A stretch of DNA of 27,176 nt, taken from NCBI GenBank assembly GCA_020356005.1, contig CP070629.1, positions 829,558 to 856,733 on the forward strand. The letters run 5' to 3'. Made by a program: the position numbers and the translations under genes. The notes under the pieces were generated by a model. The model made no database searches, had not been told where the DNA came from, and worked only from the letters and a program-made list of their open reading frames with translations. Each line of letters begins with the position of its first letter. Position 1 is the stretch's first letter. This document shows positions 1 through 26,911 of this stretch, piece by piece. This stretch comes from Thermoplasmata archaeon. GTDB taxonomy: Archaea; Thermoplasmatota; Penumbrarchaeia; JAEHCK01; GCA-020356005.

Positions 1-3000
1 ACCCCGATATTGAACGATGACGAGGATAACGATTACGAACCCTCGTTATTATACACCGCTGACGAATTTCTGCTCGTATGGGTCTCAAACGAGTTCGATC
101 AATATACATTCATGGGAAGTACCGATGAGAACCTGATTACATATTCAGTTTCTTCTGACGGCTTGAACTGGAACGATCCTGAGAGTGTCCATCCGCGGTA
201 CTGCCAGGAATCCACACCTTATTTAAGCGTCGATTCCATCGGCAGAATTCTGCTTACATGGAGCTCGGACAGGATGGATTTCGAAGAGGCAGAGGATGAG
301 CGCGATCACGATAAAGATATCTGGTATTCTACTTACGCCGCCGGTGAATGGGCTGTGCCTTCGGCGCTCACATCGGATCCGGCCAACGATGAATCGCCCT
401 CAATGTTCCAGAAGGGGAACGGCGATTACTGGACTGTGTGGTCGCGGGATGACAGGATCTTTTATTCCACCACGGATGAGCTTCCGCCTCCGGTCAATGC
501 CTTCGGATCAGCAATTAATGTTCCCATCGATAGATGGCGAGAGGAATTCGACTATACATACGAGGACGAGATCTCAAACACATTCTGGATCTACAACTAC
601 GGTGAGCGCGACCTGACAGGTAAGATCACTGCTTCGCAGGGATTCACATTAAACAAATTTGAATTTGCTATTGCGCCCGGAGAAAACATATCGTTCACGG
701 TTACATTAAACGCCAAGGACGAAGGGCGGTACCTGGGTGTCGTGGAGATCCTATCCAATGACGAGATCGCACCCAGGATTTCCATCCCGCTATATGTGAA
801 GATCACATCGTCAGAATTCGAAGAGAGCGAGAAGGATATCGGAGAGGGCGTCGGACCTGAGGAGGAGGAAGCAGAGGAGGAGGGCGAAGAGGATTTTCAG
901 AGAGTGCTTATTTTACTTACCGCCCTGGTTATAATTCTGCTGTTAATATTCATAGTAATGAGAAGAGAGGAGAAGAAAGCGGCGGAGGAGAAGAAGAAGG
1001 AGGATGAGGAGGAAGAGGAAGAAAAGGAAGAGGAGGAGGGGGAGGAAAAGGAAGGTGAAGAGGGTGAAGAGGAAGGTGAGGGTGAAGAAGAGGAAGAAGG
1101 AGGAGAGGAAGAGGAAGGAGAAAGCAAGGGAGAAGAGGGATCGGAAGTGGAGGAGGATGCAGCAAGTGATGAAGATGTAAAGACGGAGGAAAAAGAACCC
1201 GAAGATAAAGGTGCCGCCAAAGCCAAACCCAAGCGTAAGAGAGCCGTGAAACCTTTAATGGTGTTCGGTGCGTTTTTCAGCATTATGATTCTTTTATTAT
1301 CAAATTGTTCAGGTGCGGCGAATATGATGGTGCTCGCTCAGGATTCGGATATACCCCAGAGCGAGATCCCCAAGATATCCGAAAACGACCCCGGCGAATT
1401 CTGGACATGGGTACCCTATTATGACCAGAGCGGTGAAGAATCCAATCTGGAGATGCATTCCGAGTATTATGACGATGAAGGTACTTATCCACCTGACTGG
1501 GTCGAGTACGGAAGCTCTCTCAGTTTAAGACAACTGGTGGAGATGCCTTTCCCGGTGGAAAAACTGCGGTTCTGGATGAGGCATGACGAGGGCAGCGGAC
1601 CTGTGGGAGTAGAGATAACAGAAAATGTTTCCAGCAAGGTTGCTGCGGGAACAGAATATTTCTGGGCGGATTATTCATCCAGTTCATATGACTGGTGCGA
1701 GGTCAATGTTTCCACTTCGAAAATCACCAATGTTCTCGGAGGGGGGTCATACTATATTCATCTTACACCCCCCATGGATATACTTACCGAAGGTGAAATG
1801 TACGGAGTAAACCGAATAGGTACTGTTAAACTTAATGATACTCCCATACCCCCCGCGCATATTGTATATAAAACCCTGTATGATGCAGAAGTGGATTTCG
1901 CACAGAGAGGTACCGATAAGTATCAGCACATATTCTGGACTTCAAAGATCGATGATACTGTTTTGATTGACGAATTCTTTATGGACTATGACTATTACGA
2001 CGATCTAAACCCGCAATATATGTCTGACTCCCTCTGGTATACCGATAACGATTTCAATATGAAAATGGAGTTGTATATCAAAGCCGAGATGTTCAACAGC
2101 GCTAATGTTTTTCAGCCTTCTTATCCGGGTTACGAGAATGCCGAAATAGCAGGAAAAATAAATATCGTCAATCCCTTCAGCGACCAGGAGAACTTTACTG
2201 TCAGAGTAGGGTTACTGGGTCCCGATGGAACAGAATATAACGTTTTGAATGAAGAACATAAAATCAAATACGGAACAAACCTACAGCTCGATTACTCTTA
2301 TTTCACAGAAGCCAAACTTCCAGCAGGCGATTATAATGTCCTGGCGGGCATTTATCTGACTGACATTTATGAAGGTGAATACCTGGTCATGGCGGATAAA
2401 TGGGGAGATACGGATTACGAGTTGGAAAAAACGAAATTTTCTATTATCAATACCACCCCGATCATGGATGTTACCCTTATCGATAAGCTCAAGAGCGATG
2501 TTGTTGACGGCAAGATCCCGGTGTATTACCTCAAATGCAGTGATGCGCCCGGCCATAAGCCTCCCCGGTCGATTCAATCGGAGATGGATAATATCCAGGA
2601 ACGGTTCGATTCACTCGAGAGTGTACTTGGCGTGGACTTTGAACATAAAGATATAACCAGCACTCGTGAATTCCTGGAATTGGTAGAATCGGACGTTAAA
2701 GATGCCATAGTGGTTAACTACCACAGCGATTTACTGCCCATACCATCAAGCTTTGCCCGCGGCGAGTATGTTGATTTGAACACGATCGTACGATACTATT
2801 TCGACGAAAATAACGGCACCACTGTTTACGACCGTTCAAAATATATCAATGACGCAGACTTCGTCGGCAATCCCGCCTGGACACAGGAGAAGTATCAGGG
2901 TGCATCTGCACTGTACTTTGATGGGTCGAACGATATGCTGGAAATAGATGACGATATTACATTGAAAACTCCCCGGTTCACCATCCAGTTCTGGCTTTAT

Positions 3001-6000
3001 TTGAATAAAGAATATACATCCGGTGTGCAGAGCATACTATCATATGCTGGTTCAAAAGGCGGATATGAGATCAACTTAAATCAAACATCTTCAAATGCAC
3101 CAAACCAGATCGAGTTCTCGATTTCACATAATTCCTCATGGCACCACATCTCCGGTATGTCGCTGGAAGTGAATAAATGGTACAGGATCACTGCGATTCT
3201 GAACGATACGGAAGCTTCACTCTATGTGGGGTGGGAGGAGACCAAGAAGAAGCGCAGGAGTGAGGTTACCATACAGGTGGATGAACTGCAGGGTAAAATC
3301 GAGCTCGGCGGGATTTCTTTCAGTGATACCTCCTTGACCATCGGCGGCTCGAAGTTGGATACAACCAGAAATATAGAGATGTATATTGATGATTTTATTC
3401 TGACCAATGATGTGCGGCTCCCGCAGGAATACACCGAGGGTCATCCCGAGGACGGTGTCAACTGGGTCAAACGAGTTGGTAAATGGATCGCCGACTCTGG
3501 CATCGTATTCGTGAACACAAGGTACAGTCCCTTCACCGCCGTTGGCAATACAGATAAAAACTGGCCGTACAACAGGATTTCATTGGGAGCCGAGGGCTTC
3601 GGAAATATTCTGGAAACACGCTCAGTGGACGCCACAATATACAAGGATACATGGCTGGAGAATATCAAAACCGACAAAACACCCGAAGCGGCAAATATTC
3701 AAACAATATTGAGCGCGTGGGGCATTCCCTTTCCGGATTCTTTTGAGAGCGCTCAAACCTATATGACTTTGGACTCCGAGCTTGAACCTTTCTGCATACC
3801 GCTTTATAAAACGGCTGATAATGAAATTACCCATGCAATGATATTCTATGGTAAGGGAGCCATAATGTATAACGGCCTGAATAACCCCGACGCCGCCCTC
3901 ATTGCCGGCACTGCGGGTTGGTATACAGCCAAGAATATCCAGCCGCTGTATTTCATCGACTGTTCTGATGCACCCAAATCCTCAAGCAGTAAAGATTACG
4001 TGACGGAGCTGAAGAGCTCGTTTGATAAATTACAGGCGGATACGGGTATTCAATTCTATTATATTACTATCTCCAGCACCGACCAATTCTATCAATTGAT
4101 CAACTCCAACGTCAGGGATATCATTGTGGTGAACACGCACGGAGAATACCTGCCAATGCCGGCAAATTACATCAGCGGTGCATGCGTGGACGATAAAACG
4201 AATGCACTCCTGGGATTCGAGGAGGGCAGTGATATCAGCGCCTTCGATATCTCTGGCAATTACAATGACGGATTGATCGTCGGCGCTACATGGAGCACCA
4301 ATGCCCATTACGGCGATTATGCACTTGATTTCGACGGCAACGATTTTGTCGTCCTGACGCGTACGCCCAAGCTGTCGCCGAAAACCTTTACTATTGAATG
4401 CTCCGTTTATCTGAAGCAGGATTATGATAACAAGTCTGCAGCAATTATCTCAAACGAATTCCATCGTGATTCAGAACCGGGTGAAGAATACACGCATACT
4501 TACGGATATTCTCTTTACATTAATTCCAATTATACTACATTAAACAGACTGGTATTTTCATTGGGTACAAAACTGCCTGAAGTGGAGCCTCTTTATTTCG
4601 ACAGTCTGGAAAAGGAGCGGTGGTACAGGCTGGCTGCTACTTACGACGGCAGGTATATGAAGCTTTATGTCAACTATGAGGAGGTAGCTTCCAAGGTAGC
4701 GTACGGCCTCCATCCCGAAACGCTCAATAATCTGCAGATAGGTAAATGTCCCAGATACGATTACCCGATAAATGCAATAATAGATGATGTGCGGATATCG
4801 GAGGGCGCGTTATCACCTGACCAGATGCTAATAGATGTTGTGTCTCATAAGTTATGTCTGGAGGACCTGAATAGGTGGATTTCAGAGAGTAGTATTATCT
4901 GGACCAATATTGAGGGCTATGATTTCCTTTACCTGGGTTTAAAAGATCAGGACTGGCCGGATGACAGAGTCAACATTGGCTATGACGGCCTCAGTGAGTT
5001 TTCAGAGATCGGACTGCCGCCGCTTGAACTCAATACCAGATCAAACACATGCACTCTGACAGACGTTGGCGATAAAATCGATACCGATCTGGCCAGTATG
5101 ATTTTGAAATCCAGCTTCCAGAGCACTGCAAATATACCTGCCTCATACGATATGTTCACTATTCCCATCTATTCGAATGACAACGCTGTTTCGCACGGGG
5201 TGATACCCATCGGTAAGGGTAAGTTCATCCATACCGGCACCTACGATGCAGATCTGGTTGCTTCAACTGCCGCATGGTTTTTCACGAAAGGTAATGTCCA
5301 GATGATTTTCCTGGTGGACATCCCCGCAACCGTTGGCGGTACCGACCCTCTGGTTGTGGAATCCCAGCACCCTTATCCCACCAGGTTCGGAACCTCCGAG
5401 AATCTTATTGATAACCCCGGTGCGGAATCCGGCAGCATGTCGGGCTGGAAAGTCCTATTACACGGAGGTAACGGCTGGAGGGTACAGGGCGGCAGCTACG
5501 ACGGCGAAAAGCACTTCAGGACATCTTTTAACTGGTGCAAGCGTTATCAGGAGATCGATTTACTGGCAGAGGGGTACACCACCGATGAATTGAATGCTAA
5601 GCCCACCATCTATGCAGAGGAATGGTTCCACGGGTCATGGCCGAACTACGGTGATTACTACTACCTGAAAGTGGAGCTCCGCGACGCTAACCATAAAGCC
5701 ATCTCAACCTATAATTCCGGAGTACAGCGTGCAACGAACAGCTGGCAGAAGTTATCTCATACCTTCTCAGAGTACGGAGCCGGTGTGCGCTATATCTACT
5801 GGGAGGACGGCGGTGACGATGCGGAATACTGGTGGGGATATTACGGTGTAATGATCGACGGTGCGTTTTTGACCATTGACACCGCCGAGCTGGATGATAC
5901 CTGGGTTTTTTACAAGCCCGATGTGAGCAGGATCAGGGTGCATTTCGAAAAATACGAGATAGGTTCCACCGGAGATTACATCAAGGTCCTGAATAAGAAC

Positions 6001-9000
6001 GATTGTGAGCTCGCCAGGTACTCCGGTTTCGATTCCTCAGGAATGTGGACACCGTGGTGCGAAGGCGATACTGTCAAGTTGAAAATGGTAACCGGTTCCG
6101 GCCGGCACTACTGGGGTTTCAAGGTAAATAAGATCGAATATCTGACCGACGGGGTCTCCCCCATTCATCCCTACGGTAAAGCCGAGCTGATAAATAAATT
6201 GACCAATCTTGAGAACACCATGGACACCATCTGCATATTCAATGAAATTACTTCAACCGCCGAATTTGAAAAATTGGTAGAAAGCCGTCTAGAATCGCCC
6301 ATGGTCATCAATTTGCACGGCGATGCGGTGCCCGTCCCTGATTCTTATTTAACCGGAGGTGCCAGCGCCACCATACCGCCGCTGGGCTATTCGCCGGGCG
6401 GTGTAAAAGGCGAATATTACGACAACGAGGGTTTCACGAACCTGAAGGAGACCCGTGTGGACAACGAAATAAATTTCTACTGGAAATACGGCAGGCCTGT
6501 GGGTTCCGTCCATGGTGATACATTCAGCGTTAGATGGACCGGAATGCTGAGAGTCGATTTCTCAGAGGAATATACCTTCCATGTCCAGACAGATGACGGC
6601 ACCAGGTTCTGGATCGACAAGAACATGGATGGTGATTTCGACGATGCAGAAGAACTTGTAATCGATACCTGGAAGCTCCAGGCACCCACCTGGCATCAAG
6701 GTAAAATAAAGCTTACTCCCGGGTTCTATAATATCAAGTATGAATATTACGAGCATTACGGCTATGCGGTGGCAAAGCTGTTCTGGAGCTCGAAAAACAT
6801 TAAAAAGTCGGCGGTACCCGGCGAGAACCTCTATTCAAATCTGGCAACGCCGGCGGGCTACACCTCCGGCGGTCTTGAGGGTGAATATTATGATAATGCC
6901 GATTTAAAATATTTGAAGACAAAAAAAGTTGATTCAACAATCAATTTTAACTGGGGTACGGAAAGCCCGGATGCGGCCGTGGACCCTGATACATTATCGA
7001 TCAGATGGACGGGCATGGTAAAAATCGACGAGACGGGTGAATATGAGTTCTCGGTTAACACCGATGACGGGTCGAGGCTGTGGGTGAACAATCAGCAGAT
7101 CATCAATTCATGGAAGGACCAGTCCGCGCCCACTGAGTATTCCGGTAAGATCTCCTTTACGAAACCCGGTTTTTACGATATCACCTACGAATACTTCAAG
7201 AATACCGGGAGCGCTACGGCACAGCTATACTGGAAAACTCCATCCATGACGCAGGATGGTGAGCAGAAGGTAATCATTCCCTCCGATCATTTATTCAACC
7301 GCGGCGGGATATTCAGATACGCACAGGAATGGCTGAACGAGCTGGGCGATTGGGTTGCGCAGAACGGTGTGGTATATGCCAACACCAAGGATTACCCGTT
7401 CCAGTACGCCATAATCGATAACCCGCCGCCCGACAGCGGCAATCTCTGGTTCATCGGCGAAGAGGGTTTTTCGGAGTTTTTATCACCGCGCTCAGAAAGT
7501 GTAACGCTTGCACGGTACGAAGAAGGGCTCGGGATGGGCAACCTGACCCCCAACGGAAGAGCGCTCCGTGATTACCTGCCTGCGCGTACATTACCGAATT
7601 ATGTGACCGATGTACCCTACCCGCTGCCCTCAGACTATGACTGTATTCCCATCTTCCGCGACAAGGACAACAGGGATATTACCCACGGTATTATTCCCTT
7701 CGGAAGGGGTGCGTACATCCACTGCGGCGGATTCTCGGTGGATGCCTTAACCGCCATGTGTTTCATGTATTCATCTAAAAGAGACGATATGCGGTTTATC
7801 GGCGAGGTATATTACAAAGGCGAAACCGTCTGGACACAGGTACAGGTTCGCAACGATTATCCAATGGAAATGACATATGATTTTGAGCTGGTAACCCATT
7901 TCCCGGAGGAGGGGCTGCGGTCCAGGCGGATGACGGATTCGGAGATCGTTACTCTGCAGCCCGGCGAGGAGAAGACCATATACCTATCGTGGACGCCCAT
8001 CCAGCCGGATAAGATCGGTAAGTACAGCCTGGTAGTCCAGGTAATCGATCTGGAACGGCACACACTGGTAGAGATCTGGGGTAACGATATAGAGAACGAG
8101 TCTATTTCCATTAGCGTGGAGGTGGGAGCTTATATTTCGCAGCTTAAGACCAGCGATTACCTGGGATATTTCGATACTGTTGAAGTTGAGGTTACCATAA
8201 CGAACGAGATGTATATAGATAATCTATTTATCGTCAGCGGTATTTTCCAGAACAAAATCAACAAACATGTTTACTGGACGGAGGAGGAGGAACTTCCGGA
8301 GTATGAAGCCGAGGGTGGTATGGATACTACAGTGACTGTTGTATGGCATCCCTCCCAGCATAACTATCCGAACCAGACTTTTGAGCTCGGGATCTACCAG
8401 GGTACCATATTCTTAGAGGATGTTGCCAGTGCTTACTGCATACCCGATAAAAGTTATAAGACAGGTGAGCCGAAATATTTCAGGGTGAAGAAGATCATAG
8501 ATCAGAGCTCCACGGAATTCCGGATCGTGGGCCAGCTGGAAATCAATTTCCCGAAGGATATCGGGACATGGTCCATCAGCTACCACGGCGAGCTGGGCCC
8601 GTACTTCCCAATCAACCCGCAGGTCCGTGATGTGGTGCGCGTGTTCGACCCCGAGTACGATATCTGGATACGCCGCGACAGCCGGCTGGAGCTGGAGCCA
8701 GAAAGAGAGCCAGGCGGCATGATAGGCTACTGGAAGTTTGATGAATCTGTATGGACCGTGGACGCCGGCCAGGTTACCGATTCGTCGGGCAACGGGCACC
8801 ACGGCACCGCTTATAACGGTGCAAATACGGTACAGTATTCAAGATTCGGTCGATCAGCTGCCTTCAACGGGCAGAATTATGTTGTGATACCGGCCCATGA
8901 TGACATCAATGTTGGTAATAACAATGCGAACTTCAGTGTGGAATTCTGGTTCTTTTTAAAGCAGGGTCCCATCCGTTATTGGCGCAACATAATGCACAAG

Positions 9001-11541
9001 GGTAGTACGAATTCCGAGCGAACATTTGCAATGTGGATGAAGCCATGGGATAATAAAATCCATGCCCGGATAAGCACCACACACAACGTGAACGAGGGAT
9101 TTGACAGCAAGGCATACCTCCAGTTGAACTCATGGACACATGTCGCTTATGTTAAAGACGGAAACACGCTCAGTCTATACCTGAACGGTAAACTTGATAC
9201 CAAGTACACATTGGTTGGTTCTGTTGTTAACAATTCGGGACCGCTGTACATAGGGAAGGACATGTGGTACAATGGCGTTAACAGCCACATCGATGAATTG
9301 TGTCTTTACAACCGCCCCATTTATGAAGATGAGATAAAGCTGCACTATAAGAGCGGTGTAATGGAAGCTTCGGACAGGAACGCTTTCAAGCTGGGTTATT
9401 ATTCGGATTCCGGAAATGACCTGTATGCTGTGGTGAATTTTGAAAGCCAGGATGACGGCAACAGCTACCAGAAGGTTTTAAAGCTGCCCGCTGACGGCAA
9501 CTATCTAGATGTGGAACATCTGTTTGCATATTACTGGCCCGAGGGTACAACTTTAAAGATCTCGCAGGAGCCTAATTTGCAGTTCTCCGGTACGGAATAC
9601 TTCAGTTATAACGGCCCGAGACCCACCACTTTGCCTCTGGAGACCACCGTTAACGGTGTGGATTGCGCGGTACTTTACAACAGAGGTGCGGGAGTCACTT
9701 ACGATGTGGTTTTAAACGATGCGAACTTCTACAAGATCTTCATTACGGCCCAAAACTGTCCCAAGTCCGAAGCCGGCGATATAAAGCTCAGGCTGCATCT
9801 GCACTACTGGACCGGCAACCCGGCACACAAAGATTCGTTCGGTAACGTTGGATGGAAGACCAACGACGAGTCACCGAAGGATTTTGTATGGAGCGAGCGA
9901 AATGAGGAATTTGATACCAAGGAGTTCAGGCTGATACTGTCACCTGCAGGTCATTATCACATAACAATAGAGAACCTGCACGATTATTATACAAAAGATT
10001 ATGACAAGAACGCGTATATATCCGAAGTAGCGATCCGCCCGACATATGCTCTTGATATGGAAAAGCAGAAAGTAGATGAGAGCCAGATGCTGGCAAGCGG
10101 AGAGGCGGGCACACGGAGCATAAGCACCAGCAGCCGTGTGGGCGAAGATGGACCCATCGGCAACCGCAACTGTGACCTCGGTGTTCGACCCAAGAAGGTG
10201 CCGGATGAAACCATGGACTATACGTATAACGAGGTCCCCATCCCGATGTTCGGCGCCAACTACGATATGGGCAGCCCGGGCATAGAAGCTGGCGGCAGCC
10301 TACCTGTAAAATTCGGTGACCATGTAGGATTGGAAATAGAATTCGGTTTAGAGATAGATCCTACTACGGGACTGCTTCAAAAGATCTCTATCGGTATCAC
10401 ACTGGGTATCGAGGGTGAGATAGGCGGGATAGTTAAAATCGCCGCCAAGATACAGGTCCAGATAGAATTCGATGATATACTTAACACCAGCAAACCCTTT
10501 ATTGAGAAATTCAAATGGTCTGTTACTGTTGAGATCGAGGTGGGTTTCGAGATAGGTAAATTGATCTGGAAAGCGCCCATAAGCTTCGAGGTGCCGAAAC
10601 CTGGAGGAAAAGAGGGTGAAGATGAATCTCTATTGGCATTGAAACTCTGCCTGTGGATAGAGCTCGGTTTCAAGATAAGTCTGCACAGCGGAGCGAACGC
10701 CGGTGACGTCCAGATAACAGCGGGAATCTACGGCGGCATTAAATTCGAGGTCAAGTTCGAGGTCAAGATCACTCCTGATATCTTGAAGGGATTAACGCAA
10801 AAGAGTACAGATATGAGAAAGGAGAACACCAAGGCGTTAACCGATCACGCCGACCAGTCCCAGAAGGCAGAGGAATTAGAGGAAAAGCGCGAGAACAAAA
10901 TCAAGGAAATGCAAAAAGACAATAAAGATAAACCGCGCGAAGAGATCGAGAAGTTAGTAGACGAATCGCCAATGGGAAAACAGTATGCCGAGGAGCAGAA
11001 AAAGAAAGAGGATTCGTTCGCGAACCTGATGAAAAGCAGTAAAAAGTTGAGCGAATGTAATAAGTTTAAGGATATATTCGAAAAGGTTTTCGGGAAGGGC
11101 TTCAAGGATTTCCCGACCTTCCTTGAGATAGAGTTCACCATAAATTTTGTTATCGGCCTCCGCCTGGGTGTAAGCACACAGGTAGCGCCGTTCTCGCCTA
11201 CCGGTCCATACTGGAAACTGCTGTTCTACACCGAGTTCTTCTTCGCGGCTGAAATATCCTTTAAAATAATTATCAATATCTGGATCATTAAACTGGAATT
11301 CCCCATAGGCTTCAAGTTCTGGATCGACAAGATCTTCTGGATGAACAAGGTCAATATAATCGGTGCATCAGAATGGGATGACGACGGCGTTATGGGTCAG
11401 TTCATGTTCAAATGCCGCGAAAATATAGATGATGAGACCAAGGACATGATGCTGCCCGCACCCATAGGAGACGATTCAGGCTTCGAAGTGGTGTTCCTGT
11501 GGTTTAAGTTCAAGTTCTCGTTTTGTTTGGTATCTACTTGA
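1..11541 (+). CDS. Giant membrane-anchored multi-lectin surface protein (5'-incomplete, at least 3,846 codons): BNR/Asp-box-like repeats, TM hairpin with poly-E/K loop, 3x LamG, FBA, 2x PA14, CARDB-like Ig folds, C-terminal amphipathic beta-strand module
   Basis: The frame is uninterrupted from nt 1 to the TGA at 11539-11541. Codons 1-9 (acc ccg ata) contain no stop, so the TTG at nt 10 in the ORF track is probably not the real start and the gene likely continues upstream. Recognisable motifs occur along the whole length: SSDGLNW Asp-box, GEYYDN...SVRWTG PA14 signatures, LamG 'IDDVRIS/IDELCLYNR' endings, and an FBA signature. All antisense ORFs inside it look like shadow ORFs. Confidence 0.9.
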   Translation, partial: TPILNDDEDNDYEPSLLYTADEFLLVWVSNEFDQYTFMGSTDENLITYSVSSDGLNWNDPESVHPRYCQESTPYLSVDSIGRILLTWSSDRMDFEEAEDERDHDKDIWYSTYAAGEWAVPSALTSDPANDESPSMFQKGNGDYWTVWSRDDRIFYSTTDELPPPVNAFGSAINVPIDRWREEFDYTYEDEISNTFWIYNYGERDLTGKITASQGFTLNKFEFAIAPGENISFTVTLNAKDEGRYLGVVEILSNDEIAPRISIPLYVKITSSEFEESEKDIGEGVGPEEEEAEEEGEEDFQRVLILLTALVIILLLIFIVMRREEKKAAEEKKKEDEEEEEEKEEEEGEEKEGEEGEEEGEGEEEEEGGEEEEGESKGEEGSEVEEDAASDEDVKTEEKEPEDKGAAKAKPKRKRAVKPLMVFGAFFSIMILLLSNCSGAANMMVLAQDSDIPQSEIPKISENDPGEFWTWVPYYDQSGEESNLEMHSEYYDDEGTYPPDWVEYGSSLSLRQLVEMPFPVEKLRFWMRHDEGSGPVGVEITENVSSKVAAGTEYFWADYSSSSYDWCEVNVSTSKITNVLGGGSYYIHLTPPMDILTEGEMYGVNRIGTVKLNDTPIPPAHIVYKTLYDAEVDFAQRGTDKYQHIFWTSKIDDTVLIDEFFMDYDYYDDLNPQYMSDSLWYTDNDFNMKMELYIKAEMFNSANVFQPSYPGYENAEIAGKINIVNPFSDQENFTVRVGLLGPDGTEYNVLNEEHKIKYGTNLQLDYSYFTEAKLPAGDYNVLAGIYLTDIYEGEYLVMADKWGDTDYELEKTKFSIINTTPIMDVTLIDKLKSDVVDGKIPVYYLKCSDAPGHKPPRSIQSEMDNIQERFDSLESVLGVDFEHKDITSTREFLELVESDVKDAIVVNYHSDLLPIPSSFARGEYVDLNTIVRYYFDENNGTTVYDRSKYINDADFVGNPAWTQEKYQGASALYFDGSNDMLEIDDDITLKTPRFTIQFWLYLNKEYTSGVQSILSYAGSKGGYEINLNQTSSNAPNQIEFSISHNSSWHHISGMSLEVNKWYRITAILNDTEASLYVGWEETKKKRRSEVTIQVDELQGKIELGGISFSDTSLTIGGSKLDTTRNIEMYIDDFILTNDVRLPQEYTEGHPEDGVNWVKRVGKWIADSGIVFVNTRYSPFTAVGNTDKNWPYNRISLGAEGFGNILETRSVDATIYKDTWLENIKTDKTPEAANIQTILSAWGIPFPDSFESAQTYMTLDSELEPFCIPLYKTADNEITHAMIFYGKGAIMYNGLNNPDAALIAGTAGWYTAKNIQPLYFIDCSDAPKSSSSKDYVTELKSSFDKLQADTGIQFYYITISSTDQFYQLINSNVRDIIVVNTHGEYLPMPANYISGACVDDKTNALLGFEEGSDISAFDISGNYNDGLIVGATWSTNAHYGDYALDFDGNDFVVLTRTPKLSPKTFTIECSVYLKQDYDNKSAAIISNEFHRDSEPGEEYTHTYGYSLYINSNYTTLNRLVFSLGTKLPEVEPLYFDSLEKERWYRLAATYDGRYMKLYVNYEEVASKVAYGLHPETLNNLQIGKCPRYDYPINAIIDDVRISEGALSPDQMLIDVVSHKLCLEDLNRWISESSIIWTNIEGYDFLYLGLKDQDWPDDRVNIGYDGLSEFSEIGLPPLELNTRSNTCTLTDVGDKIDTDLASMILKSSFQSTANIPASYDMFTIPIYSNDNAVSHGVIPIGKGKFIHTGTYDADLVASTAAWFFTKGNVQMIFLVDIPATVGGTDPLVVESQHPYPTRFGTSENLIDNPGAESGSMSGWKVLLHGGNGWRVQGGSYDGEKHFRTSFNWCKRYQEIDLLAEGYTTDELNAKPTIYAEEWFHGSWPNYGDYYYLKVELRDANHKAISTYNSGVQRATNSWQKLSHTFSEYGAGVRYIYWEDGGDDAEYWWGYYGVMIDGAFLTIDTAELDDTWVFYKPDVSRIRVHFEKYEIGSTGDYIKVLNKNDCELARYSGFDSSGMWTPWCEGDTVKLKMVTGSGRHYWGFKVNKIEYLTDGVSPIHPYGKAELINKLTNLENTMDTICIFNEITSTAEFEKLVESRLESPMVINLHGDAVPVPDSYLTGGASATIPPLGYSPGGVKGEYYDNEGFTNLKETRVDNEINFYWKYGRPVGSVHGDTFSVRWTGMLRVDFSEEYTFHVQTDDGTRFWIDKNMDGDFDDAEELVIDTWKLQAPTWHQGKIKLTPGFYNIKYEYYEHYGYAVAKLFWSSKNIKKSAVPGENLYSNLATPAGYTSGGLEGEYYDNADLKYLKTKKVDSTINFNWGTESPDAAVDPDTLSIRWTGMVKIDETGEYEFSVNTDDGSRLWVNNQQIINSWKDQSAPTEYSGKISFTKPGFYDITYEYFKNTGSATAQLYWKTPSMTQDGEQKVIIPSDHLFNRGGIFRYAQEWLNELGDWVAQNGVVYANTKDYPFQYAIIDNPPPDSGNLWFIGEEGFSEFLSPRSESVTLARYEEGLGMGNLTPNGRALRDYLPARTLPNYVTDVPYPLPSDYDCIPIFRDKDNRDITHGIIPFGRGAYIHCGGFSVDALTAMCFMYSSKRDDMRFIGEVYYKGETVWTQVQVRNDYPMEMTYDFELVTHFPEEGLRSRRMTDSEIVTLQPGEEKTIYLSWTPIQPDKIGKYSLVVQVIDLERHTLVEIWGNDIENESISISVEVGAYISQLKTSDYLGYFDTVEVEVTITNEMYIDNLFIVSGIFQNKINKHVYWTEEEELPEYEAEGGMDTTVTVVWHPSQHNYPNQTFELGIYQGTIFLEDVASAYCIPDKSYKTGEPKYFRVKKIIDQSSTEFRIVGQLEINFPKDIGTWSISYHGELGPYFPINPQVRDVVRVFDPEYDIWIRRDSRLELEPEREPGGMIGYWKFDESVWTVDAGQVTDSSGNGHHGTAYNGANTVQYSRFGRSAAFNGQNYVVIPAHDDINVGNNNANFSVEFWFFLKQGPIRYWRNIMHKGSTNSERTFAMWMKPWDNKIHARISTTHNVNEGFDSKAYLQLNSWTHVAYVKDGNTLSLYLNGKLDTKYTLVGSVVNNSGPLYIGKDMWYNGVNSHIDELCLYNRPIYEDEIKLHYKSGVMEASDRNAFKLGYYSDSGNDLYAVVNFESQDDGNSYQKVLKLPADGNYLDVEHLFAYYWPEGTTLKISQEPNLQFSGTEYFSYNGPRPTTLPLETTVNGVDCAVLYNRGAGVTYDVVLNDANFYKIFITAQNCPKSEAGDIKLRLHLHYWTGNPAHKDSFGNVGWKTNDESPKDFVWSERNEEFDTKEFRLILSPAGHYHITIENLHDYYTKDYDKNAYISEVAIRPTYALDMEKQKVDESQMLASGEAGTRSISTSSRVGEDGPIGNRNCDLGVRPKKVPDETMDYTYNEVPIPMFGANYDMGSPGIEAGGSLPVKFGDHVGLEIEFGLEIDPTTGLLQKISIGITLGIEGEIGGIVKIAAKIQVQIEFDDILNTSKPFIEKFKWSVTVEIEVGFEIGKLIWKAPISFEVPKPGGKEGEDESLLALKLCLWIELGFKISLHSGANAGDVQITAGIYGGIKFEVKFEVKITPDILKGLTQKSTDMRKENTKALTDHADQSQKAEELEEKRENKIKEMQKDNKDKPREEIEKLVDESPMGKQYAEEQKKKEDSFANLMKSSKKLSECNKFKDIFEKVFGKGFKDFPTFLEIEFTINFVIGLRLGVSTQVAPFSPTGPYWKLLFYTEFFFAAEISFKIIINIWIIKLEFPIGFKFWIDKIFWMNKVNIIGASEWDDDGVMGQFMFKCRENIDDETKDMMLPAPIGDDSGFEVVFLWFKFKFSFCLVST
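904..1302 (+). other. Internal transmembrane hairpin: TM1 (VLILLTALVIILLLIFIVM), ~95-aa poly-Glu/Lys loop, TM2 (MVFGAFFSIMILLLS) that resembles a signal peptide
   Basis: Two hydrophobic ~19-aa and ~16-aa stretches sit at nt 904-960 and 1258-1302. Both have basic residues on the loop side (RREEKK after TM1, KAKPKRKRAVKP before TM2). The loop is an almost pure purine (GAR) tract on the + strand. Confidence 0.75.
2791..3432 (+). other. LamG/concanavalin-A-like lectin domain 1 (Laminin_G_3-like)
   Basis: YYFDENNGTTVYDRS...ALYFDGSNDMLEI...FTIQFWLYL...WYRITAI...LYVG...MYIDDFILTN. This is the pattern typical of LamG_3 domains in prokaryotic surface proteins. Confidence 0.75.
4204..4827 (+). other. 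LamG/concanavalin-A-like lectin domain 2
   Basis: LLGFEEGSDISAFDISGNYNDGLIVGATW...ALDFDGNDFVVL...FTIECSVYL...WYRLAATYDGRYMKLYVN...IIDDVRISEGALSPDQM. Confidence 0.8.
5401..5877 (+). other. FBA domain (F-box-associated / Fbs1-FBXO2 type sugar-binding domain)
   Basis: NLIDNPGAESGSMSGWKVLLHGGNGWRVQ...FRTSFNWCKRYQEIDLLAEGY...YYLKVELRD...WQKLSHTFSEYGAGVRYIYWEDGGDDAEYWWGYYGVMIDGA. This aligns block for block with my recollection of the FBXO2 sugar-binding domain: NLLRNPCGEEDLEGW...HGGDGWRVEE...FASSFEWCRKAQVIDLQAEGY...YELTVKLL...WMEISHTFTDYGPGVRFVRFEHGGQDSVYWKGWFGARVT. Confidence 0.8.
6397..6795 (+). other. PA14 domain 1
   Basis: GGVKGEYYDNEGFTNLKETRVDNEINFYW...DTFSVRWTGMLRVDFSEEYTFHVQTDDGTRFWID...GFYNIKYEYYEHYGYAVAKLFWSS. 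This is the canonical PA14 signature. Confidence 0.9.
6868..7245 (+). other. PA14 domain 2
   Basis: GGLEGEYYDNADLKYLKTKKVDSTINFNWG...DTLSIRWTGMVKIDETGEYEFSVNTDDGSRLWVNNQQII...GFYDITYEYFKNTGSATAQLYWKTPS. Confidence 0.9.
8725..9360 (+). other. LamG/concanavalin-A-like lectin domain 3
   Basis: GYWKFDES...VTDSSGNGHHGTAYNGA...AAFNGQNYVVIP...FSVEFWFFL...WTHVAYVKDGNTLSLYLNGKL...LYIGKD...IDELCLYNRPIYEDEIKLHY. Confidence 0.85.
10234..11538 (+). other. C-terminal amphipathic beta-strand module (two blocks) split by a ~105-aa K/E-rich coiled-coil-like insert (nt ~10801-11118)
   Basis: There are runs of strict hydrophobic/polar alternation: GLEIEFGLEID, ISIGITLGIEGEIGG, IQVQIEFD, WSVTVEIEVGFEIG, LCLWIELGFKISLH, IKFEVKFEVKIT, LEIEFTINFVIGLRLGV, EISFKIIINIWIIKLEF, FEVVFLWFKFKFSF. 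I do not recognise a family signature. Confidence 0.6.
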
Positions 11542-11778: not shown

Positions 11779-12029
11779 TGGAATTTATTAAAATCGACCA
11801 AACGGGTAAAATCTACCTGCCTAAAGTCATACGAAACAAAATAGATACCCGCAGTAAATATTTGGTAATTACCCTGCCGGACGGCGATGTGATTCTTCAT
11901 AAAATTAAAAGGTCAAAGAATCCTATACGTGATTTTCAGAAAGCATGGTCCACAGGAAAGGATATTGCAGAGATAAGAAAGGATATTCTGGATGAAGCCG
12001 TTAAACTTGCTGGAGAACGCGGTGATTGA
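11778..12029 (+). CDS. AbrB/SpoVT-fold antitoxin (VapB-like)
   Basis: The N-terminus (M)EFIKIDQTGKIYLPKVIRNKID...LVITLPDGDVILHKI is the swapped-hairpin AbrB/MazE/SpoVT motif. The gene is 83 aa, lies directly upstream of a PIN gene and overlaps it. The start is a TTG and is uncertain. Confidence 0.75.
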   Translation: MEFIKIDQTGKIYLPKVIRNKIDTRSKYLVITLPDGDVILHKIKRSKNPIRDFQKAWSTGKDIAEIRKDILDEAVKLAGERGD

Positions 12030-12408
12030 GTTGTATGCCGATACCGATTTTTTTCTGGCATTAATAAAAAAAGATGATTGGTTGAAGAAACGGGCGGAAA
12101 AACTTTATAAAAAACATCAAAATGAATTGTGGACATCTACATTGACTATTAAAGAATTAATGCTTTTAGCATATCGTGATAATAAGGATGTTACAGATAT
12201 TATCGAAAAAGCTTCCGCTTTAATGCCGGTTAAGGAGGTAGATATCGGTGTGGAAGGGCATATTGCCGCCAGCTTTTTAATTAAAAAATATAAAATGACG
12301 CCCTTCGATGCATTACATGCAGTTATTTGTGATAATGATTCAATTATCAGTTCAGATAAAAAATATGATTTGATAGGGCTCAATAGAATTACGTTAGAAA
12401 AAGAATAG
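12022..12408 (+). CDS. PIN-domain ribonuclease toxin (VapC-like)
   Basis: It carries the N-terminal acidic motif YADTDFFLAL and the later FDALHAV and ISSDKKYD motifs typical of PIN domains. I prefer the GTG at 12022: GGAGAA lies 4-5 nt upstream, it overlaps the antitoxin stop by 8 nt, and the first conserved Asp falls at residue 7-9. The ORF-track ATG at 11992 is the alternative. Confidence 0.75.
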   Translation: MIELYADTDFFLALIKKDDWLKKRAEKLYKKHQNELWTSTLTIKELMLLAYRDNKDVTDIIEKASALMPVKEVDIGVEGHIAASFLIKKYKMTPFDALHAVICDNDSIISSDKKYDLIGLNRITLEKE

Positions 12409-12532
12409 ATAAAACTGAGATTGGGAATCCGAACCAATTTTTCTCCAAATTTATAAAAACAACAAAGAATTTAATAGTCTATAATGCAATAATGTGGGTA
12501 ATCTTCCGATTATATTCATGGAGCTCTTTGTG

Positions 12533-14844: not shown

Positions 14845-16284
14845 TCATCGCTCCCTGTATCCCATCTGCTCGCGAACTGTGGGCGGTTTGTATTTCGATT
14901 TCTCAAGATCGAATTTTGCCGTGTATGCCATTTGATTTAACGACTCCGCCAGGAACTCGAACTCGTCACCGGTATTGACCTCAATTTTGTGTTCAAGCTG
15001 TTTCTTCTGCATTGCGTCTGCACCATCTTTAAGTAGAAAAATCGGTCTGGTGATTGACCTGCCCACCAGTATGGACAGAACAGAAATTACAGCAAGAGCA
15101 ATTATGACAAAAAGAATGGATATGTTGAACGCCTCACCCAGCTGTTCGTCGATATAGTCGCTGGCGTTCCCTGTGGCATTTGTTATTTTACCTTCGATCT
15201 CCACAGCGGGTGCGATTATTTCGGCAATGGGCATAACAAATGCGACGCTCCAGCCGGTGCTCTCTATCGGCGCGTAAGCGAAATATTTCTCACCCTCCTC
15301 CAGTTCACACCGACTGATCCCAGAATTGCCCGTTGTCATATCCTCGCCTATGGCTTTTAAATCCGGGTTCGTACTCTCCAGCAGATTCTCAAGCTCAAAG
15401 GATTCGTCCCACATTTTATCCTCAGCCTGCAGGCCCGGCCGGGCGATTATATTACCGTTATTGTCCACAAGTATCCCGTAACCGGTTTCACCAACCTGCG
15501 GTTTAATAATATCGGAATTGATGGTTTTTATGGTAATATCCGCCGCCACCACCCAGAAATAATCTGTGCTGGTGGAGTACACAGGTGCGGAGCATGTTAT
15601 CATCAGCTCGTTCGTACCCACATCCAGGTACGGGCTCGTCCAGGATATCCCGCCCGACTCTACCGCATTTGTATACCAATCCCGCACCCTGGGATCGTAC
15701 GTTGGATCTATTCCGGTATCCCACGGATAAATCCTGGCAAAACCGGAACCGGTCCCGATATAAATCCATTCTACATAGGGATCGTTGGAATAAGTGGGTA
15801 TGAAAATATTATCGAGAACACTTGAAAGGTCCAGTTCAGCTCTAACATTATCTGCAGACACACCGGGGGCCAGCACATATACGGAATCTTCGAAAATATC
15901 TTCAGGCTGCTCGTTTTGTGAATATGAATATTTATATTGAAACGATGATGAATTATCGATAAGAGTGGCGGCGAATTCAGACACTATGCTTACTTCCGAT
16001 TCTATCTTTTCGAACAGCATATTTCCGAAAGCTGCTTGACCTTTTGCCAATCTTACCAGGTTATCCTCGGCTTGTGACTCTAGAGCAGTTGTGCTGTCGT
16101 CCACGGCGCTGTCGCCAAGTTCTGTGCACCGGTCAATAGTATAATCACCGCTCTCCTCTAAATTATCTAGAGAGAAATATCCGAAGAAAATTAATGAAAT
16201 CAGAGAAAATACCAAGAAAACTATCAGGATTTTTGTTCGTATCTTCATTTTGATTCTTGATTTCTGTGTCATAAAAACCACCAT
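14845..16284 (-). CDS. Membrane sensor with extracytoplasmic Cache-like domain and HAMP domain, no output domain (paralogue of the N-terminal two-thirds of the adjacent PP2C phosphatase)
   Basis: It has TM1 (ILIVFLVFSLISLIFFGYF), a ~330-aa periplasmic region, TM2 (ISILFVIIALAVISVLSILV) and a HAMP-like stretch (RPIFLLKDGADAMQKKQLEHKIEVNTGDEFEFLAESLNQMA). By eye it is collinear and roughly half identical with residues ~30-470 of the 17112-19286 product. It ends about 30 aa after HAMP. Confidence 0.8.
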   Translation of the reverse strand: MVVFMTQKSRIKMKIRTKILIVFLVFSLISLIFFGYFSLDNLEESGDYTIDRCTELGDSAVDDSTTALESQAEDNLVRLAKGQAAFGNMLFEKIESEVSIVSEFAATLIDNSSSFQYKYSYSQNEQPEDIFEDSVYVLAPGVSADNVRAELDLSSVLDNIFIPTYSNDPYVEWIYIGTGSGFARIYPWDTGIDPTYDPRVRDWYTNAVESGGISWTSPYLDVGTNELMITCSAPVYSTSTDYFWVVAADITIKTINSDIIKPQVGETGYGILVDNNGNIIARPGLQAEDKMWDESFELENLLESTNPDLKAIGEDMTTGNSGISRCELEEGEKYFAYAPIESTGWSVAFVMPIAEIIAPAVEIEGKITNATGNASDYIDEQLGEAFNISILFVIIALAVISVLSILVGRSITRPIFLLKDGADAMQKKQLEHKIEVNTGDEFEFLAESLNQMAYTAKFDLEKSKYKPPTVREQMGYRER

Positions 16285-16290
16285 ACTTAA

Positions 16291-16626: not shown

Positions 16627-16645
16627 ACTAGTTCCTCCTGATCGG

Positions 16646-17071: not shown

Positions 17072-17111
17072 GTGTATTATCCATCCCGGATCTTTGATTA
17101 AGATATATAAT

Positions 17112-25862: not shown

Positions 25863-26027
25863 CGATTGAATCAGGTTCTAGGTTCTGGGTTTTAGGAGAA
25901 TAGACAAAGGACCCCGCGTGTTATTATCAATTAAAATTACCCTTGGGCCTGGCCTCTGACCTCCGGTCTCCAGTATTACTTTTGCCTAGTGCCTCTTTTC
26001 TTTTGCCTCTTATAAAAATATTCTCGC

Positions 26028-26900: not shown

Positions 26901-26911
26901 AAAAAAGATCT

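What the first reader, a model, noticed from the sequence alone, without database searches (positions are those of the whole stretch)
1..11541. Giant 5'-open ORF encoding a mosaic, apparently non-enzymatic, multi-lectin surface protein
One uninterrupted frame of more than 3,840 codons is still open at the window edge. It combines five or six carbohydrate- or ligand-binding folds: 3 LamG, 2 PA14 and 1 FBA, plus CARDB-like Ig domains and BNR-like repeats. I do not recognise any catalytic domain. It also has a membrane hairpin in the middle and an unusual beta-strand module at the C-terminus. The size, domain mix and topology point to a cell-surface glycan-recognition or adhesion machine, not an S-layer protein or an enzyme. 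I do not recognise this whole architecture as a described family.
Basis: partly seen in the sequence, partly recalled or inferred. Interest (0 to 1): 0.8.

Follow-up and report, generated by a model that had tools for sequence, protein, structure and literature searches.

The report
Giant archaeal multi-lectin surface protein
The ORF is real and encodes about 4,100 residues of a membrane-tethered, sugar-binding surface protein from a Thermoplasmata archaeon, built in an undescribed way: lectin domains are inserted into loops of a new non-catalytic scaffold domain.

Summary
Frame 1 is stop-free from nt 1 to the stop at 11539-11541 (3,846 codons). A Thermoplasmata MAG contig carries a collinear ORF, 57% identical over 3,637 residues, so a chimera or frameshift is unlikely. 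That ORF supplies the missing N-terminus: about 252 residues with a signal peptide.

Pfam recovers exactly 3 Laminin_G_3, 2 PA14 and 1 FBA above threshold. CARDB is not recovered, and the BNR-like propeller is sub-threshold.

New findings:
- **Nested lectins.** Two LamG domains and the PA14 pair are insertions in three copies of a roughly 260-residue alpha/beta domain with no Pfam model. Only 34 of 1.84 billion representative proteins match it.
- **Scaffold fold.** AlphaFold (pLDDT 88.5) plus Foldseek place this domain in the class I glutamine-amidotransferase-like fold. No nucleophile is conserved.
- **Hairpin.** The mid-protein membrane hairpin is conserved across the family. Its second helix looks like an internal cleavable signal peptide.
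- **C-terminal module.** The amphipathic-beta module recurs in two other giant proteins and matches nothing known.

All relatives are "hypothetical" Thermoplasmatota proteins. The best reading is a glycan-binding adhesin or sensor. This is inferred, not shown. It is a new variant of a known kind.

The parts
1..555 (+). C-terminal part of a BNR-like beta-propeller (aa 1-185). About 252 residues, including the signal peptide, lie upstream of the window.
   Evidence: Sub-threshold Beta-prop_BT_1020 hit (E=0.004) and an SSDGLNW Asp-box-like motif. The L001 homologue supplies the signal peptide plus 252 more residues. A family profile gives only marginal hits to sialidases and GH43 propellers (E 9e-4 to 0.3).
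556..795 (+). Ig-like domain (ASH/HYDIN type), aa 186-265
   Evidence: PF15780 ASH scores 32 bits in the whole-protein scan (cutoff 27); HYDIN_VesB_CFA65-like_Ig and choice-of-anchor D hits are weak. 76% identical to L001.
796..903 (+). Acidic stalk before the membrane, aa 266-301
   Evidence: Read directly from the sequence; alignment to L001.
904..960 (+). Transmembrane helix 1 (aa 302-320), followed by RREEKK
   Evidence: Kyte-Doolittle peak of 3.55. Conserved in position in L001, P0004, P0006, P0008, P0031 and P0001.
961..1254 (+). Low-complexity charged loop (aa 321-418), predicted cytoplasmic. E/G-rich core with basic ends.
   Evidence: Basic residues flank both helices. 21% identical to L001, where the loop is K-rich and of similar length. 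Other family members have loops of about 12-45 residues. Encoded by the GAR DNA repeat.
1255..1338 (+). Transmembrane helix 2, or an internal signal-peptide-like segment (aa 419-446). Hydrophobic core LMVFGAFFSIMILLL, polar c-region SNCSGAANMMVLA, then Q447.
   Evidence: In family members the second helix is followed by a polar stretch and a small-x-small site: VLA|Q, ATA|Q, VVA|Q, AKA|D, SNA|Q, AQA|S.
1339..2508 (+). Unassigned beta-rich ectodomain region (aa 447-836). Its last ~130 residues look Ig/CARDB-like by eye only.
   Evidence: No Pfam hit at E<=1 and no PDB profile hit. 56% identical to L001 and 34% to P0001.
2509..3963 (+). Module A: GATase-like scaffold split by a LamG insert. N-half aa 837-925, LamG insert aa 926-1139, C-half aa 1140-1321.
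   Evidence: Self-BLAST repeats and alignment A1. Laminin_G_3 at 44 bits. AlphaFold of the joined halves gives pLDDT 88.5 and pTM 0.89. Foldseek hits GATase-like folds.
3934..5322 (+). Module B: GATase-like scaffold split by a LamG insert. N-half aa 1312-1397, LamG insert aa 1398-1603, C-half aa 1604-1774.
   Evidence: Laminin_G_3 at 63 bits.
5383..5880 (+). FBA domain, the Fbs1-type sugar-binding domain (aa 1795-1960)
   Evidence: PF04300 at 111 bits. Matches FBXO2 sugar-binding domain 1umi at E=8e-29. The YW.G.FG motif and the F of YFASSF align.
5881..6117 (+). Small unassigned beta domain (aa 1961-2039)
   Evidence: No Pfam hit. 60% identical to L001.
6118..7809 (+). Module C: GATase-like scaffold split by a tandem PA14 pair. 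N-half aa 2040-2123, PA14 x2 aa 2124-2424, C-half aa 2425-2603.
   Evidence: PA14 at 161 bits with 2 stretches. The pair aligns end to end with the RsgI3 sensor 6qe7 at E=3e-58. Scaffold halves.
7810..8835 (+). Unassigned region, probably Ig-like repeats (aa 2604-2945)
   Evidence: Only weak ASH/Cep192 hits (E 0.05-0.17). 65% identical to L001. Homologous stretches occur in P0001, P0005, P0006, P0008 and P0031.
8836..9345 (+). Third LamG domain, free-standing (aa 2946-3115), unusually diverged
   Evidence: Laminin_G_3 at 85 bits. Only 29% identical to L001 while the flanks are 62-72%.
9346..10320 (+). Unassigned region (aa 3116-3440)
   Evidence: Weak CBM60 hit (E=0.001, below cutoff). No PDB profile hit. 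62% identical to L001.
10321..11538 (+). C-terminal module: amphipathic-beta part 1 (aa 3441-3598), K/E-rich helical insert (aa 3599-3703), amphipathic/aromatic beta part 2 (aa 3704-3846)
   Evidence: Beta hydrophobic moment of 1.82 and 1.35 against about 0.9 elsewhere. Homologous modules with the same three-part layout end P0005 and P0006. No recurrent Pfam hit and no hit with profile A5.
11539..11541 (+). Stop codon

Best explanation
This is most of the gene for a roughly 4,100-residue cell-surface protein of a Thermoplasmata archaeon.

Proposed assembly and topology:
- A Sec signal peptide, present upstream of the window, exports a BNR-like propeller and an Ig domain.
- A membrane hairpin follows: helix 1, a charged cytoplasmic loop, then helix 2. 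It re-initiates export of a further 3,400 or so residues.

That long ectodomain displays six lectin-type domains. Two LamG domains and a tandem PA14 pair are nested as insertions in one surface loop (after strand 3) of three copies of a non-catalytic glutamine-amidotransferase-like scaffold domain. An Fbs1-type FBA domain and a third LamG stand free between Ig-like spacers.

The protein ends in a conserved amphipathic-beta / helical / amphipathic-beta module. This module probably anchors or oligomerises the distal end.

The most likely role is multivalent binding of glycans on particles, other cells or the cell's own envelope, that is, adhesion or capture.

Shown here: the ORF, the domains, the nesting, the fold of the scaffold, conservation of the hairpin, and the family's distribution. 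Inferred: the topology, sugar binding, the absence of catalysis, and the biological role.
For: Real, conserved ORF:
- 3,846 stop-free codons.
- A collinear homologue at 57% identity in an independent Thermoplasmata MAG, with its own signal peptide.
- The host is an archaeon, shown by RNase P RNA at 207 bits.

Lectin domains:
- Above Pfam cutoffs.
- The PA14 pair matches the carbohydrate-sensing RsgI3 dyad at E=3e-58.
- The FBA domain matches the Fbs1 sugar-binding domain at E=8e-29, with the YW motif kept.

Nesting of the lectins:
- Three internal repeats have split alpha/beta halves around LamG or PA14.
- The same domain occurs unsplit in smaller archaeal proteins, where the profile matches contiguously over positions 5-252.
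- The joined halves fold as one domain, pLDDT 88.5 and pTM 0.89.

Scaffold fold and catalysis:
- Foldseek gives probability 1.00 to GATase-like domains: 3fij, GH164 and GH42 accessory domains, SpuA, HTS, CTP synthase.
- The family's near-invariant residues are N, H, P, P, G, G, G, with no Cys or Ser nucleophile.
- No catalytic family appears in Pfam or NCBIfam.

Hairpin:
- Two helices with basic residues on the loop side, conserved in 7 family members.

Extracellular context of the family:
- Relatives carry signal peptides, a class III (pilin-type) signal, CarboxypepD_reg domains and C-terminal anchors.
Against: - No experiment, and no ligand is known.
- About 1,500 residues have no assigned fold, so a catalytic domain could be hidden there or in the propeller. 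Weak sialidase/GH43 similarity exists; a relative scores GH43 at 4e-5 and another BNR_2 at 9e-6, both below cutoff.
- Foldseek TM-scores for the scaffold are modest (0.38-0.47), so the fold assignment is distant.
- N-glycosylation sequons are not enriched (19 against 26.7 +/- 4.6 expected).
- Topology was judged from hydropathy and charge only. No dedicated predictor was available.
- Gene neighbourhoods are not conserved and give no functional hint.
Confidence: 0.7

Rival explanations
1. Polyprotein-type precursor. Helix 2 is not a permanent anchor but an internal signal peptide that signal peptidase cuts after A446 (VLA|Q). This would give two chains: a membrane-anchored propeller-Ig subunit of about 700 residues, and a free 3,400-residue lectin chain. 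The free chain would stay on the cell through the C-terminal module or through binding to the anchored subunit. This refines the best explanation rather than excluding it.
For: In seven family members the second helix has a short hydrophobic core, then a 5-13-residue polar stretch rich in S/G/P/A, then a small-x-small site: VLA|Q, ATA|Q, VVA|Q, AKA|D, SNA|Q, AQA|S. This is the same pattern as their true N-terminal signal peptides, VKA|Q, VNA|S, VFA|E and VEA|G. Basic residues lie just before it. There is no conserved internal start codon, since L001 has no Met there, so the two parts must be made as one chain.
Against: No signal-peptide predictor or proteomic data were available, and the pattern was judged by eye. 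Internal signal-peptidase processing of this kind is well known for viral glycoprotein precursors (background knowledge), but I know of no archaeal surface-protein example. An uncleaved hairpin explains the same sequence features.
Confidence: 0.35
2. Carbohydrate-active enzyme with many binding modules. The N-terminal propeller, or an unassigned region, would be a glycoside hydrolase such as a sialidase- or GH43-like enzyme. The lectin domains would then act as carbohydrate-binding modules that target it to a polysaccharide.
For: The propeller family profile touches sialidases and GH43 xylosidases (E 9e-4 to 0.3). P0031 scores Glyco_hydro_43 at 4e-5 and P0004 scores BNR_2 at 9e-6. GATase-like domains accompany GH42 and GH164 enzymes. 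The PA14 part resembles that of Xyl3A xylosidase.
Against: All these hits are below the curated cutoffs. In the 7-sequence propeller alignment only one Gly and one Pro are invariant, with no Arg, Asp, Glu or Tyr. No GH catalytic domain appears in Pfam or NCBIfam for the window protein or for L001. The scaffold lacks a conserved nucleophile.
Confidence: 0.12
3. Contact-dependent membrane-inserting or pore-forming device. The lectins would dock on a target cell, and the C-terminal amphipathic-beta module would insert into the target's membrane or the cell's own as a beta-barrel-like anchor, loosely like the C-terminal barrel of an autotransporter.
For: The C-terminal module has 8-12-residue strands of strictly alternating hydrophobic and charged residues, rich in I/G/F. 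Its beta moment is twice that of the rest of the protein. It is conserved at the extreme C-terminus of P0005 and P0006. Other family members also end in very hydrophobic beta-like segments.
Against: There is no similarity to any known barrel, pore-former or Pfam family. The two kinds of C-terminus in the family are not detectably related (hhalign probability 2.8%). No structure model could be made, and the same pattern fits a soluble beta-sandwich or solenoid.
Confidence: 0.12
4. Artefact: an assembly chimera, or two or more neighbouring genes fused by a lost stop codon or frameshift.
For: The GAR-rich repeat at nt 960-1157 is the kind of tract whose length short-read assemblers can get wrong. 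Helix 2 looks like the start of a separate secreted protein.
Against: An independent assembly has the same continuous, collinear ORF. Six other family members also carry propeller, hairpin and modules in one ORF, one of them annotated with both start and stop. The three protein modules are only about 30% identical, so there is no DNA repeat to collapse.
Confidence: 0.02

Closest known systems
Giant membrane-anchored surface proteins and multi-LamG surface proteins of DPANN/nanohaloarchaea ('SPEARE' proteins)
   Same: Archaeal, thousands of residues long, extracellular, with LamG and Ig-like domains. They are proposed to mediate binding to glycosylated partners (PMC10266531).
   Different: Those proteins are described with a VirB4/TraG-like ATPase domain, tandem Ig/fibronectin arrays and a coiled-coil tip (PMC10266531). 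The protein here has no ATPase. It has PA14 and FBA domains, lectins nested in GATase-like scaffolds, a mid-protein hairpin and a different C-terminus, and it comes from Thermoplasmatota. No sequence comparison with SPEARE proteins was run.
RsgI3 anti-sigma-I factor sensor of Clostridium thermocellum (PDB 6qe7), a tandem PA14 carbohydrate sensor
   Same: The two PA14 domains align end to end with the RsgI3 dyad at E=3e-58.
   Different: RsgI3 is a small bacterial single-pass anti-sigma factor. Here the dyad is an insertion inside another domain of a giant archaeal protein with no sigma-factor-binding part.
Fbs1/FBXO2 sugar-binding domain (Pfam FBA, PDB 1umi)
   Same: Full-length domain match at 111 bits. 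The aromatic YW motif and the Phe that contact the N-glycan core in Fbs1 (my recollection of the Fbs1 structures) align with Y-W and F here.
   Different: There is no F-box. The Lys after YW is Trp here. The protein is extracellular and archaeal rather than a cytosolic ubiquitin-ligase subunit.
Class I glutamine-amidotransferase-like accessory domains of GH42 and GH164 glycosidases, and GATase-like proteins such as lin1909 (3fij)
   Same: Same fold by Foldseek: probability 1.00, E 3e-6 to 1e-4.
   Different: TM-scores are only 0.38-0.47 and identity 6-14%. There is no sequence-level hit to PDB or Pfam and no Cys-His-Glu triad. The domain is extracellular, archaeal, and used as a host for inserted lectin domains.

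Membership tests
Laminin_G_3 (PF13385, concanavalin A-like lectin/glucanase) | Profile match above Pfam's gathering score | tested here: met
   Three stretches. Tile scores are 44, 63 and 85 bits against a cutoff of 27.6.
PA14 (PF07691) | Profile match above the gathering score; tandem dyad as in RsgI3 | tested here: met
   161 bits with 2 stretches. Matches 6qe7 at E=3e-58 over both domains.
FBA (PF04300, Fbs1-type sugar-binding domain) | Profile match above the gathering score | tested here: met
   111 bits against a cutoff of 32.4, covering profile positions 8-174 of 175.
FBA (PF04300, Fbs1-type sugar-binding domain) | Conserved glycan-contact residues (Phe, Tyr-Trp-Lys of Fbs1; residue list from memory) | tested here: inconclusive
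   F, Y and W align, but K is replaced by W (YWWGYYG against YWKGWFG). Binding was not tested.
CARDB (PF07705) Ig-like domains | Profile match | tested here: not met
   No CARDB hit in any tile at E<=1. Only ASH/HYDIN-type Ig is found at aa 190-262.
BNR / sialidase-type beta-propeller | Profile match to BNR_2 or Sialidase above cutoff, and repeated Asp-box motifs | tested here: inconclusive
   Only Beta-prop_BT_1020 at E=0.003-0.004, below cutoff. One Asp-box-like motif in the window and three in L001. The family profile hits sialidases and GH43 at E 9e-4 to 0.3.
BNR / sialidase-type beta-propeller | Catalytic residues (Arg triad, Tyr/Glu nucleophile pair, acid/base Asp) | tested here: inconclusive
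   In a 7-sequence family alignment only one Gly and one Pro are invariant. The alignment is at 18-27% identity, so absence is not proven.
Class I glutamine amidotransferase-like fold | Fold similarity of a confident model | tested here: met
   Model pLDDT 88.5 and pTM 0.89. 97 PDB matches at E<=1e-3, led by GATase-like domains, with TMq 0.38-0.47.
Class I glutamine amidotransferase (as an enzyme) | Cys-His-Glu catalytic triad with the Cys at the nucleophile elbow | tested here: not met
   Across 29 domain copies the invariant or near-invariant residues are N70, H72, P77, P79, G149, G234 and G236. No Cys or Ser is conserved, and the stretch after strand 4 reads N-x-x-G-Y-P-F.
Known archaeal surface-anchor signals and S-layer families (e.g. 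PGF-CTERM and related NCBIfam models) | Match to a curated C-terminal sorting or S-layer model | tested here: not met
   The NCBIfam scan of the whole protein at E<=0.1 lists no such model. The C-terminus has no recurrent Pfam hit.
Nanohaloarchaeal giant 'SPEARE' proteins | VirB4/TraG-like ATPase domain and a neighbouring AAA+ ATPase gene (PMC10266531) | tested here: not met
   No ATPase family appears in the Pfam or NCBIfam scans of the protein. The downstream genes are a PIN protein and a PBP-C13 peptidase.

The most novel reading that the evidence does not exclude
This family would be a previously unrecognised kind of archaeal surface machine, made as a polyprotein. An internal signal peptide would split it into a hairpin-anchored propeller subunit and a 3,400-residue lectin chain. 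The lectin chain would display its lectins on a new 'host' scaffold domain with an insertion-tolerant loop. Its C-terminal amphipathic-beta module would insert into a membrane, the cell's own or a partner's. Functionally this would be an archaeal counterpart of autotransporter or two-partner adhesins, built from unrelated parts.
Probability: 0.15. Interest if true: 0.85.

Novelty: new variant of a known kind. Interest (0 to 1): 0.6.

Why it matters
Little is known about how uncultured Thermoplasmatota, which are abundant in sediments and the ocean, recognise particles, glycans or other cells.

This protein defines a small lineage-restricted family with only 34 detectable relatives among 1.84 billion representative proteins. 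It has three features worth testing:
- A new extracellular scaffold domain whose single loop accepts whole lectin domains of about 200-470 residues. This is a natural domain-insertion platform.
- A conserved mid-protein hairpin that may be an internal signal-peptidase site. That would be unusual for a cellular surface protein.
- An Fbs1-type N-glycan-binding domain outside eukaryotes, next to a clostridial-type PA14 sensor pair.

Each domain is small enough to express and put on glycan arrays, so the ligands, and hence the ecology, are directly testable.

Tried and rejected
Searches that found nothing or failed:
- The whole-protein search in the 5.8-billion-cluster database timed out, probably because of the poly-E tract.
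- Word-indexed searches found nothing with aa 440-1320, with scaffold profile A2 or with C-terminal profile A5.
- Exact look-ups of two neighbouring proteins found nothing, so the source genome is not in that collection.
- Two metagenome scans, with the C-terminal profile and with a profile of module C plus the Ig region, found no relatives.
- PDB profile searches for the scaffold (A2, A3) gave only noise. Those for aa 443-836 and aa 3116-3400 gave nothing or a single chance-level match.

Models and alignments that did not work:
- AlphaFold of the scaffold with only the three window copies gave pLDDT 42.8 and was discarded.

Leads rejected:
- The weak DUF6603 hit in the C-terminal module does not recur in P0005 or P0006 and is treated as noise.
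- hhalign found no relation between the two kinds of family C-terminus.
- N-glycosylation sequon density gave no support for surface location.
- Gene neighbourhoods of three relatives share nothing with the window.
- Literature searches found no description of this family.
Full report

Frame 1 of the + strand has no stop codon from nt 1 to the stop at 11539-11541. That is 3,846 sense codons, and the frame is open at the window's 5' edge. A random sequence of this composition would be expected to hit a stop about every 21 codons, so chance is excluded. GC content is even along the ORF at 0.44-0.52. The only DNA-level repeat is an imperfect GAR tract at nt 960-1157. The three protein-level repeats are only about 30% identical, so there is nothing for an assembler to collapse.

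The window carries an archaeal RNase P RNA at 24484-24783 (207 bits), so the organism is an archaeon.

**2. Independent confirmation and the missing N-terminus**

I searched one genome per GTDB species with aa 1-290. This returned a single locus, L001, on contig CBDVCJ010000043.1 from an uncultured Thermoplasmata MAG.

- L001 holds one continuous ORF that is collinear with the window protein. It is 57% identical over window aa 2-3638, with no large gaps, and it runs off the fetched stretch.
- Most domains are 54-76% identical. This argues for purifying selection along the whole length and against a chimera or a hidden frameshift.
- L001 also shows what lies upstream of the window. It has a start, a signal peptide (hydrophobic core aa 20-38, then VKA|QTT) and about 252 more residues of propeller.
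- The full protein is therefore about 4,100 residues.

**3. Domain content**

| Domain | Copies | Evidence |
|---|---|---|
| Laminin_G_3 | 3 | tile scores 44, 63 and 85 bits; cutoff 27.6 |
| PA14 | 2 | 161 bits |
| FBA | 1 | 111 bits; cutoff 32.4 |

- The PA14 pair aligns end to end with the tandem PA14 sensor of the RsgI3 anti-sigma factor (6qe7, E=3e-58).
- The FBA domain aligns with the sugar-binding domain of FBXO2/Fbs1 (1umi, E=8e-29). The aromatic YW motif and a Phe are kept, but the following Lys is Trp. That these are glycan-contact residues in Fbs1 is my recollection, not a result obtained here.
- An ASH/HYDIN-type Ig domain lies at aa 190-262.
- CARDB was not recovered in any tile, even at E<=1.
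- The BNR-like N-terminal part is sub-threshold. It gives BT_1020 propeller at E=0.004 and has one Asp-box-like motif in the window and three in L001. A 7-member family profile reaches sialidases and GH43 xylosidases only marginally, at E 9e-4 to 0.3.
- No catalytic family appears in Pfam or NCBIfam.

**4.

Self-comparison shows three copies of a 460-560-residue module, at aa 837-1321, 1312-1774 and 2040-2603. In each module a roughly 85-residue alpha/beta N-half and a roughly 175-residue C-half flank a LamG (modules A and B) or the PA14 pair (module C).

The alpha/beta part has no Pfam model and no PDB sequence match. An exhaustive HMMER search with a profile of the three joined scaffolds found only 34 proteins at E<=1e-3 among 1.84 billion representatives.

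In several smaller hits (P0016, P0017, P0019 and others) the profile matches contiguously. In the large ones (P0001, P0004-P0008, P0031, P0023-25) it is split by about 200-470 residues at the same point. So this is one domain with an insertion-tolerant loop.

With an alignment of these relatives, AlphaFold2 folds the joined halves of module A as a single domain with pLDDT 88.5 and pTM 0.89. Only the artificial junction has low confidence. The earlier 3-sequence attempt gave pLDDT 42.8.

Foldseek against the PDB gives 97 matches at E<=1e-3. They are led by class I glutamine-amidotransferase-like domains:
- lin1909 (3fij);
- the accessory domains of GH164 and GH42 glycosidases;
- SpuA;
- homoserine O-succinyl/acetyltransferase;
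- CTP synthase.

TM-scores are modest at 0.38-0.47, so the relation is distant and at fold level only.

Across 29 domain copies the invariant or near-invariant residues are N70, H72, P77, P79, G149, G234 and G236 (motif I-N-x-H-G-x-x-x-P-x-P). No Cys or Ser nucleophile is conserved. I therefore read it as a non-catalytic scaffold. The lectin insert sits after strand 3, just before helix 3.

**5. The hairpin**

Two hydrophobic segments, aa 302-320 and 419-446, bracket a 98-residue E/G/K-rich loop. The ends of that loop are basic: RREEKK after helix 1 and KAKPKRKRAVKP before helix 2. By the positive-inside rule (established knowledge) the loop is cytoplasmic, so both large parts are outside.

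The hairpin is conserved in position in L001, P0001, P0004, P0006, P0008 and P0031. The loop ranges from about 12 to about 95 residues and is K-rich in L001.

In every case helix 2 has a short hydrophobic core, a polar S/G/P/A-rich tail and a small-x-small site: VLA|Q, ATA|Q, VVA|Q, AKA|D, SNA|Q, AQA|S. This is the same pattern as the family's true N-terminal signal peptides. It raises the possibility that helix 2 is an internal signal peptide cut by signal peptidase, which would yield two chains from one precursor. I could not run a signal-peptide predictor, so this is inference only.

L001 has no Met near helix 2, so separate translation of the distal part is unlikely.

**6. The C-terminal module**

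Residues 3441-3598 and 3704-3846 consist of short strands of alternating hydrophobic and charged residues. They are rich in I/G/E/K and in F/I respectively. Their two-residue hydrophobic moments are 1.82 and 1.35, against 0.78-1.14 elsewhere in the protein. They flank a 105-residue K/E-rich, presumably helical stretch.

The same three-part layout ends two other giant family members, P0005 (3,647 aa) and P0006 (4,483 aa, from Tara Oceans).

Attempts to place the module found nothing:
- The module has no recurrent Pfam hit.
- Profile A5 found nothing in the word-indexed database or in metagenome contigs.
- It is not detectably related to the hydrophobic C-termini of P0004, P0007 and P0031.

Its role as anchor, oligomerisation element or membrane inserter is open.

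**7. The family**

The named relatives are "hypothetical protein" from Thermoplasmata or Candidatus Thermoplasmatota MAGs. Others come from JGI, ENA and Tara metagenomes.

The large members share a common plan: signal peptide, BNR-like propeller, Ig domain, hairpin, split scaffold with a LamG-type insert, Ig-like region and a hydrophobic C-terminus. P0001 has three split modules, as the window protein does, but lacks FBA.

Small members place the unsplit scaffold behind Sec or class III signal peptides, together with CarboxypepD_reg domains and C-terminal anchors. This is an extracellular setting.

Neighbourhoods are not conserved. The exception is that P0005 and P0006 are each preceded by a large He_PIG protein gene.

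**8. Mechanism, and what is shown versus inferred**

Shown here:
- the ORF and its conservation;
- the six lectin-type domains;
- the nested architecture;
- the GATase-like fold of the scaffold and its lack of a conserved nucleophile;
- the conserved hairpin;
- the conserved C-terminal module;
- the restriction of the family to Thermoplasmatota.

Inferred:
- Sec export of both large parts, with the loop in the cytoplasm;
- glycan binding by the lectins;
- multivalent adhesion or capture as the role;
- a non-catalytic nature for the whole protein.

The main rivals are set out in the rival-explanations section: internal signal-peptide cleavage (a refinement of this reading), an enzyme carrying binding modules, a membrane-inserting device, and an artefact.

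**9. Comparison with known systems**

Giant archaeal surface proteins with LamG and Ig domains are known from DPANN/nanohaloarchaea. Those are described with a VirB4-like ATPase domain and other features that are absent here (PMC10266531).

The individual lectin domains are ordinary members of their families. New here are the scaffold domain family, its use as a host for inserted lectins, the conserved hairpin with a signal-peptide-like second helix, the C-terminal module, and the domain combination as a whole. I found no paper describing it.

**Verdict**

It is a new variant of a known kind, the giant multi-lectin surface protein. Interest is 0.6.

Noticed in passing
window 24484-24783 (+): Archaeal RNase P RNA (RF00373), 207 bits, full length. 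It fixes the host as an archaeon.
   Followed up: yes
window 12494-14665 (+) and 21686-24055 (-): Two legumain-type peptidase genes. One fuses a periplasmic-binding-protein domain to Peptidase_C13 (181 bits). The other has a weak C13 match plus bacterial Ig domains. Both appear to be secreted.
   Followed up: partly
window 14845-19289 (-): A bacterial-style partner-switching set in an archaeon: a dCache-HAMP sensor, a STAS protein, an anti-sigma-type HATPase_c_2 kinase, and a dCache-HAMP-SpoIIE phosphatase.
   Followed up: no
window 8836-9345 (aa 2946-3115): The third LamG domain is only 29% identical to its counterpart in L001, while the flanking regions are 62-72% identical. The L001 copy also scores as Pentaxin. 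This suggests a domain swap or fast evolution of one binding site.
   Followed up: partly
L002 2428-7905 and L004 211-6690: In the P0005/P0006 branch of the family, a 1,825- or 2,159-residue He_PIG protein gene lies directly upstream on the same strand, only 2 nt away in L004. This suggests a two-gene unit. The equivalent position cannot be seen in the window.
   Followed up: no
window 960-1157: An imperfect GAR (GAA/GAG/GGA) repeat encodes the E/G-rich cytoplasmic loop. The homologue has a K-rich loop of similar length instead, so the charge is reversed.
   Followed up: partly
window 11992-12408 (+): A PIN-domain gene lies immediately downstream of the giant ORF. No obvious antitoxin partner was examined.
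   Followed up: no
window 25943-26913 and 26914-27176 (-): About 1 kb has no convincing ORF and no Rfam hit. It is followed by a minus-strand gene fragment that runs off the window end.
   Followed up: no
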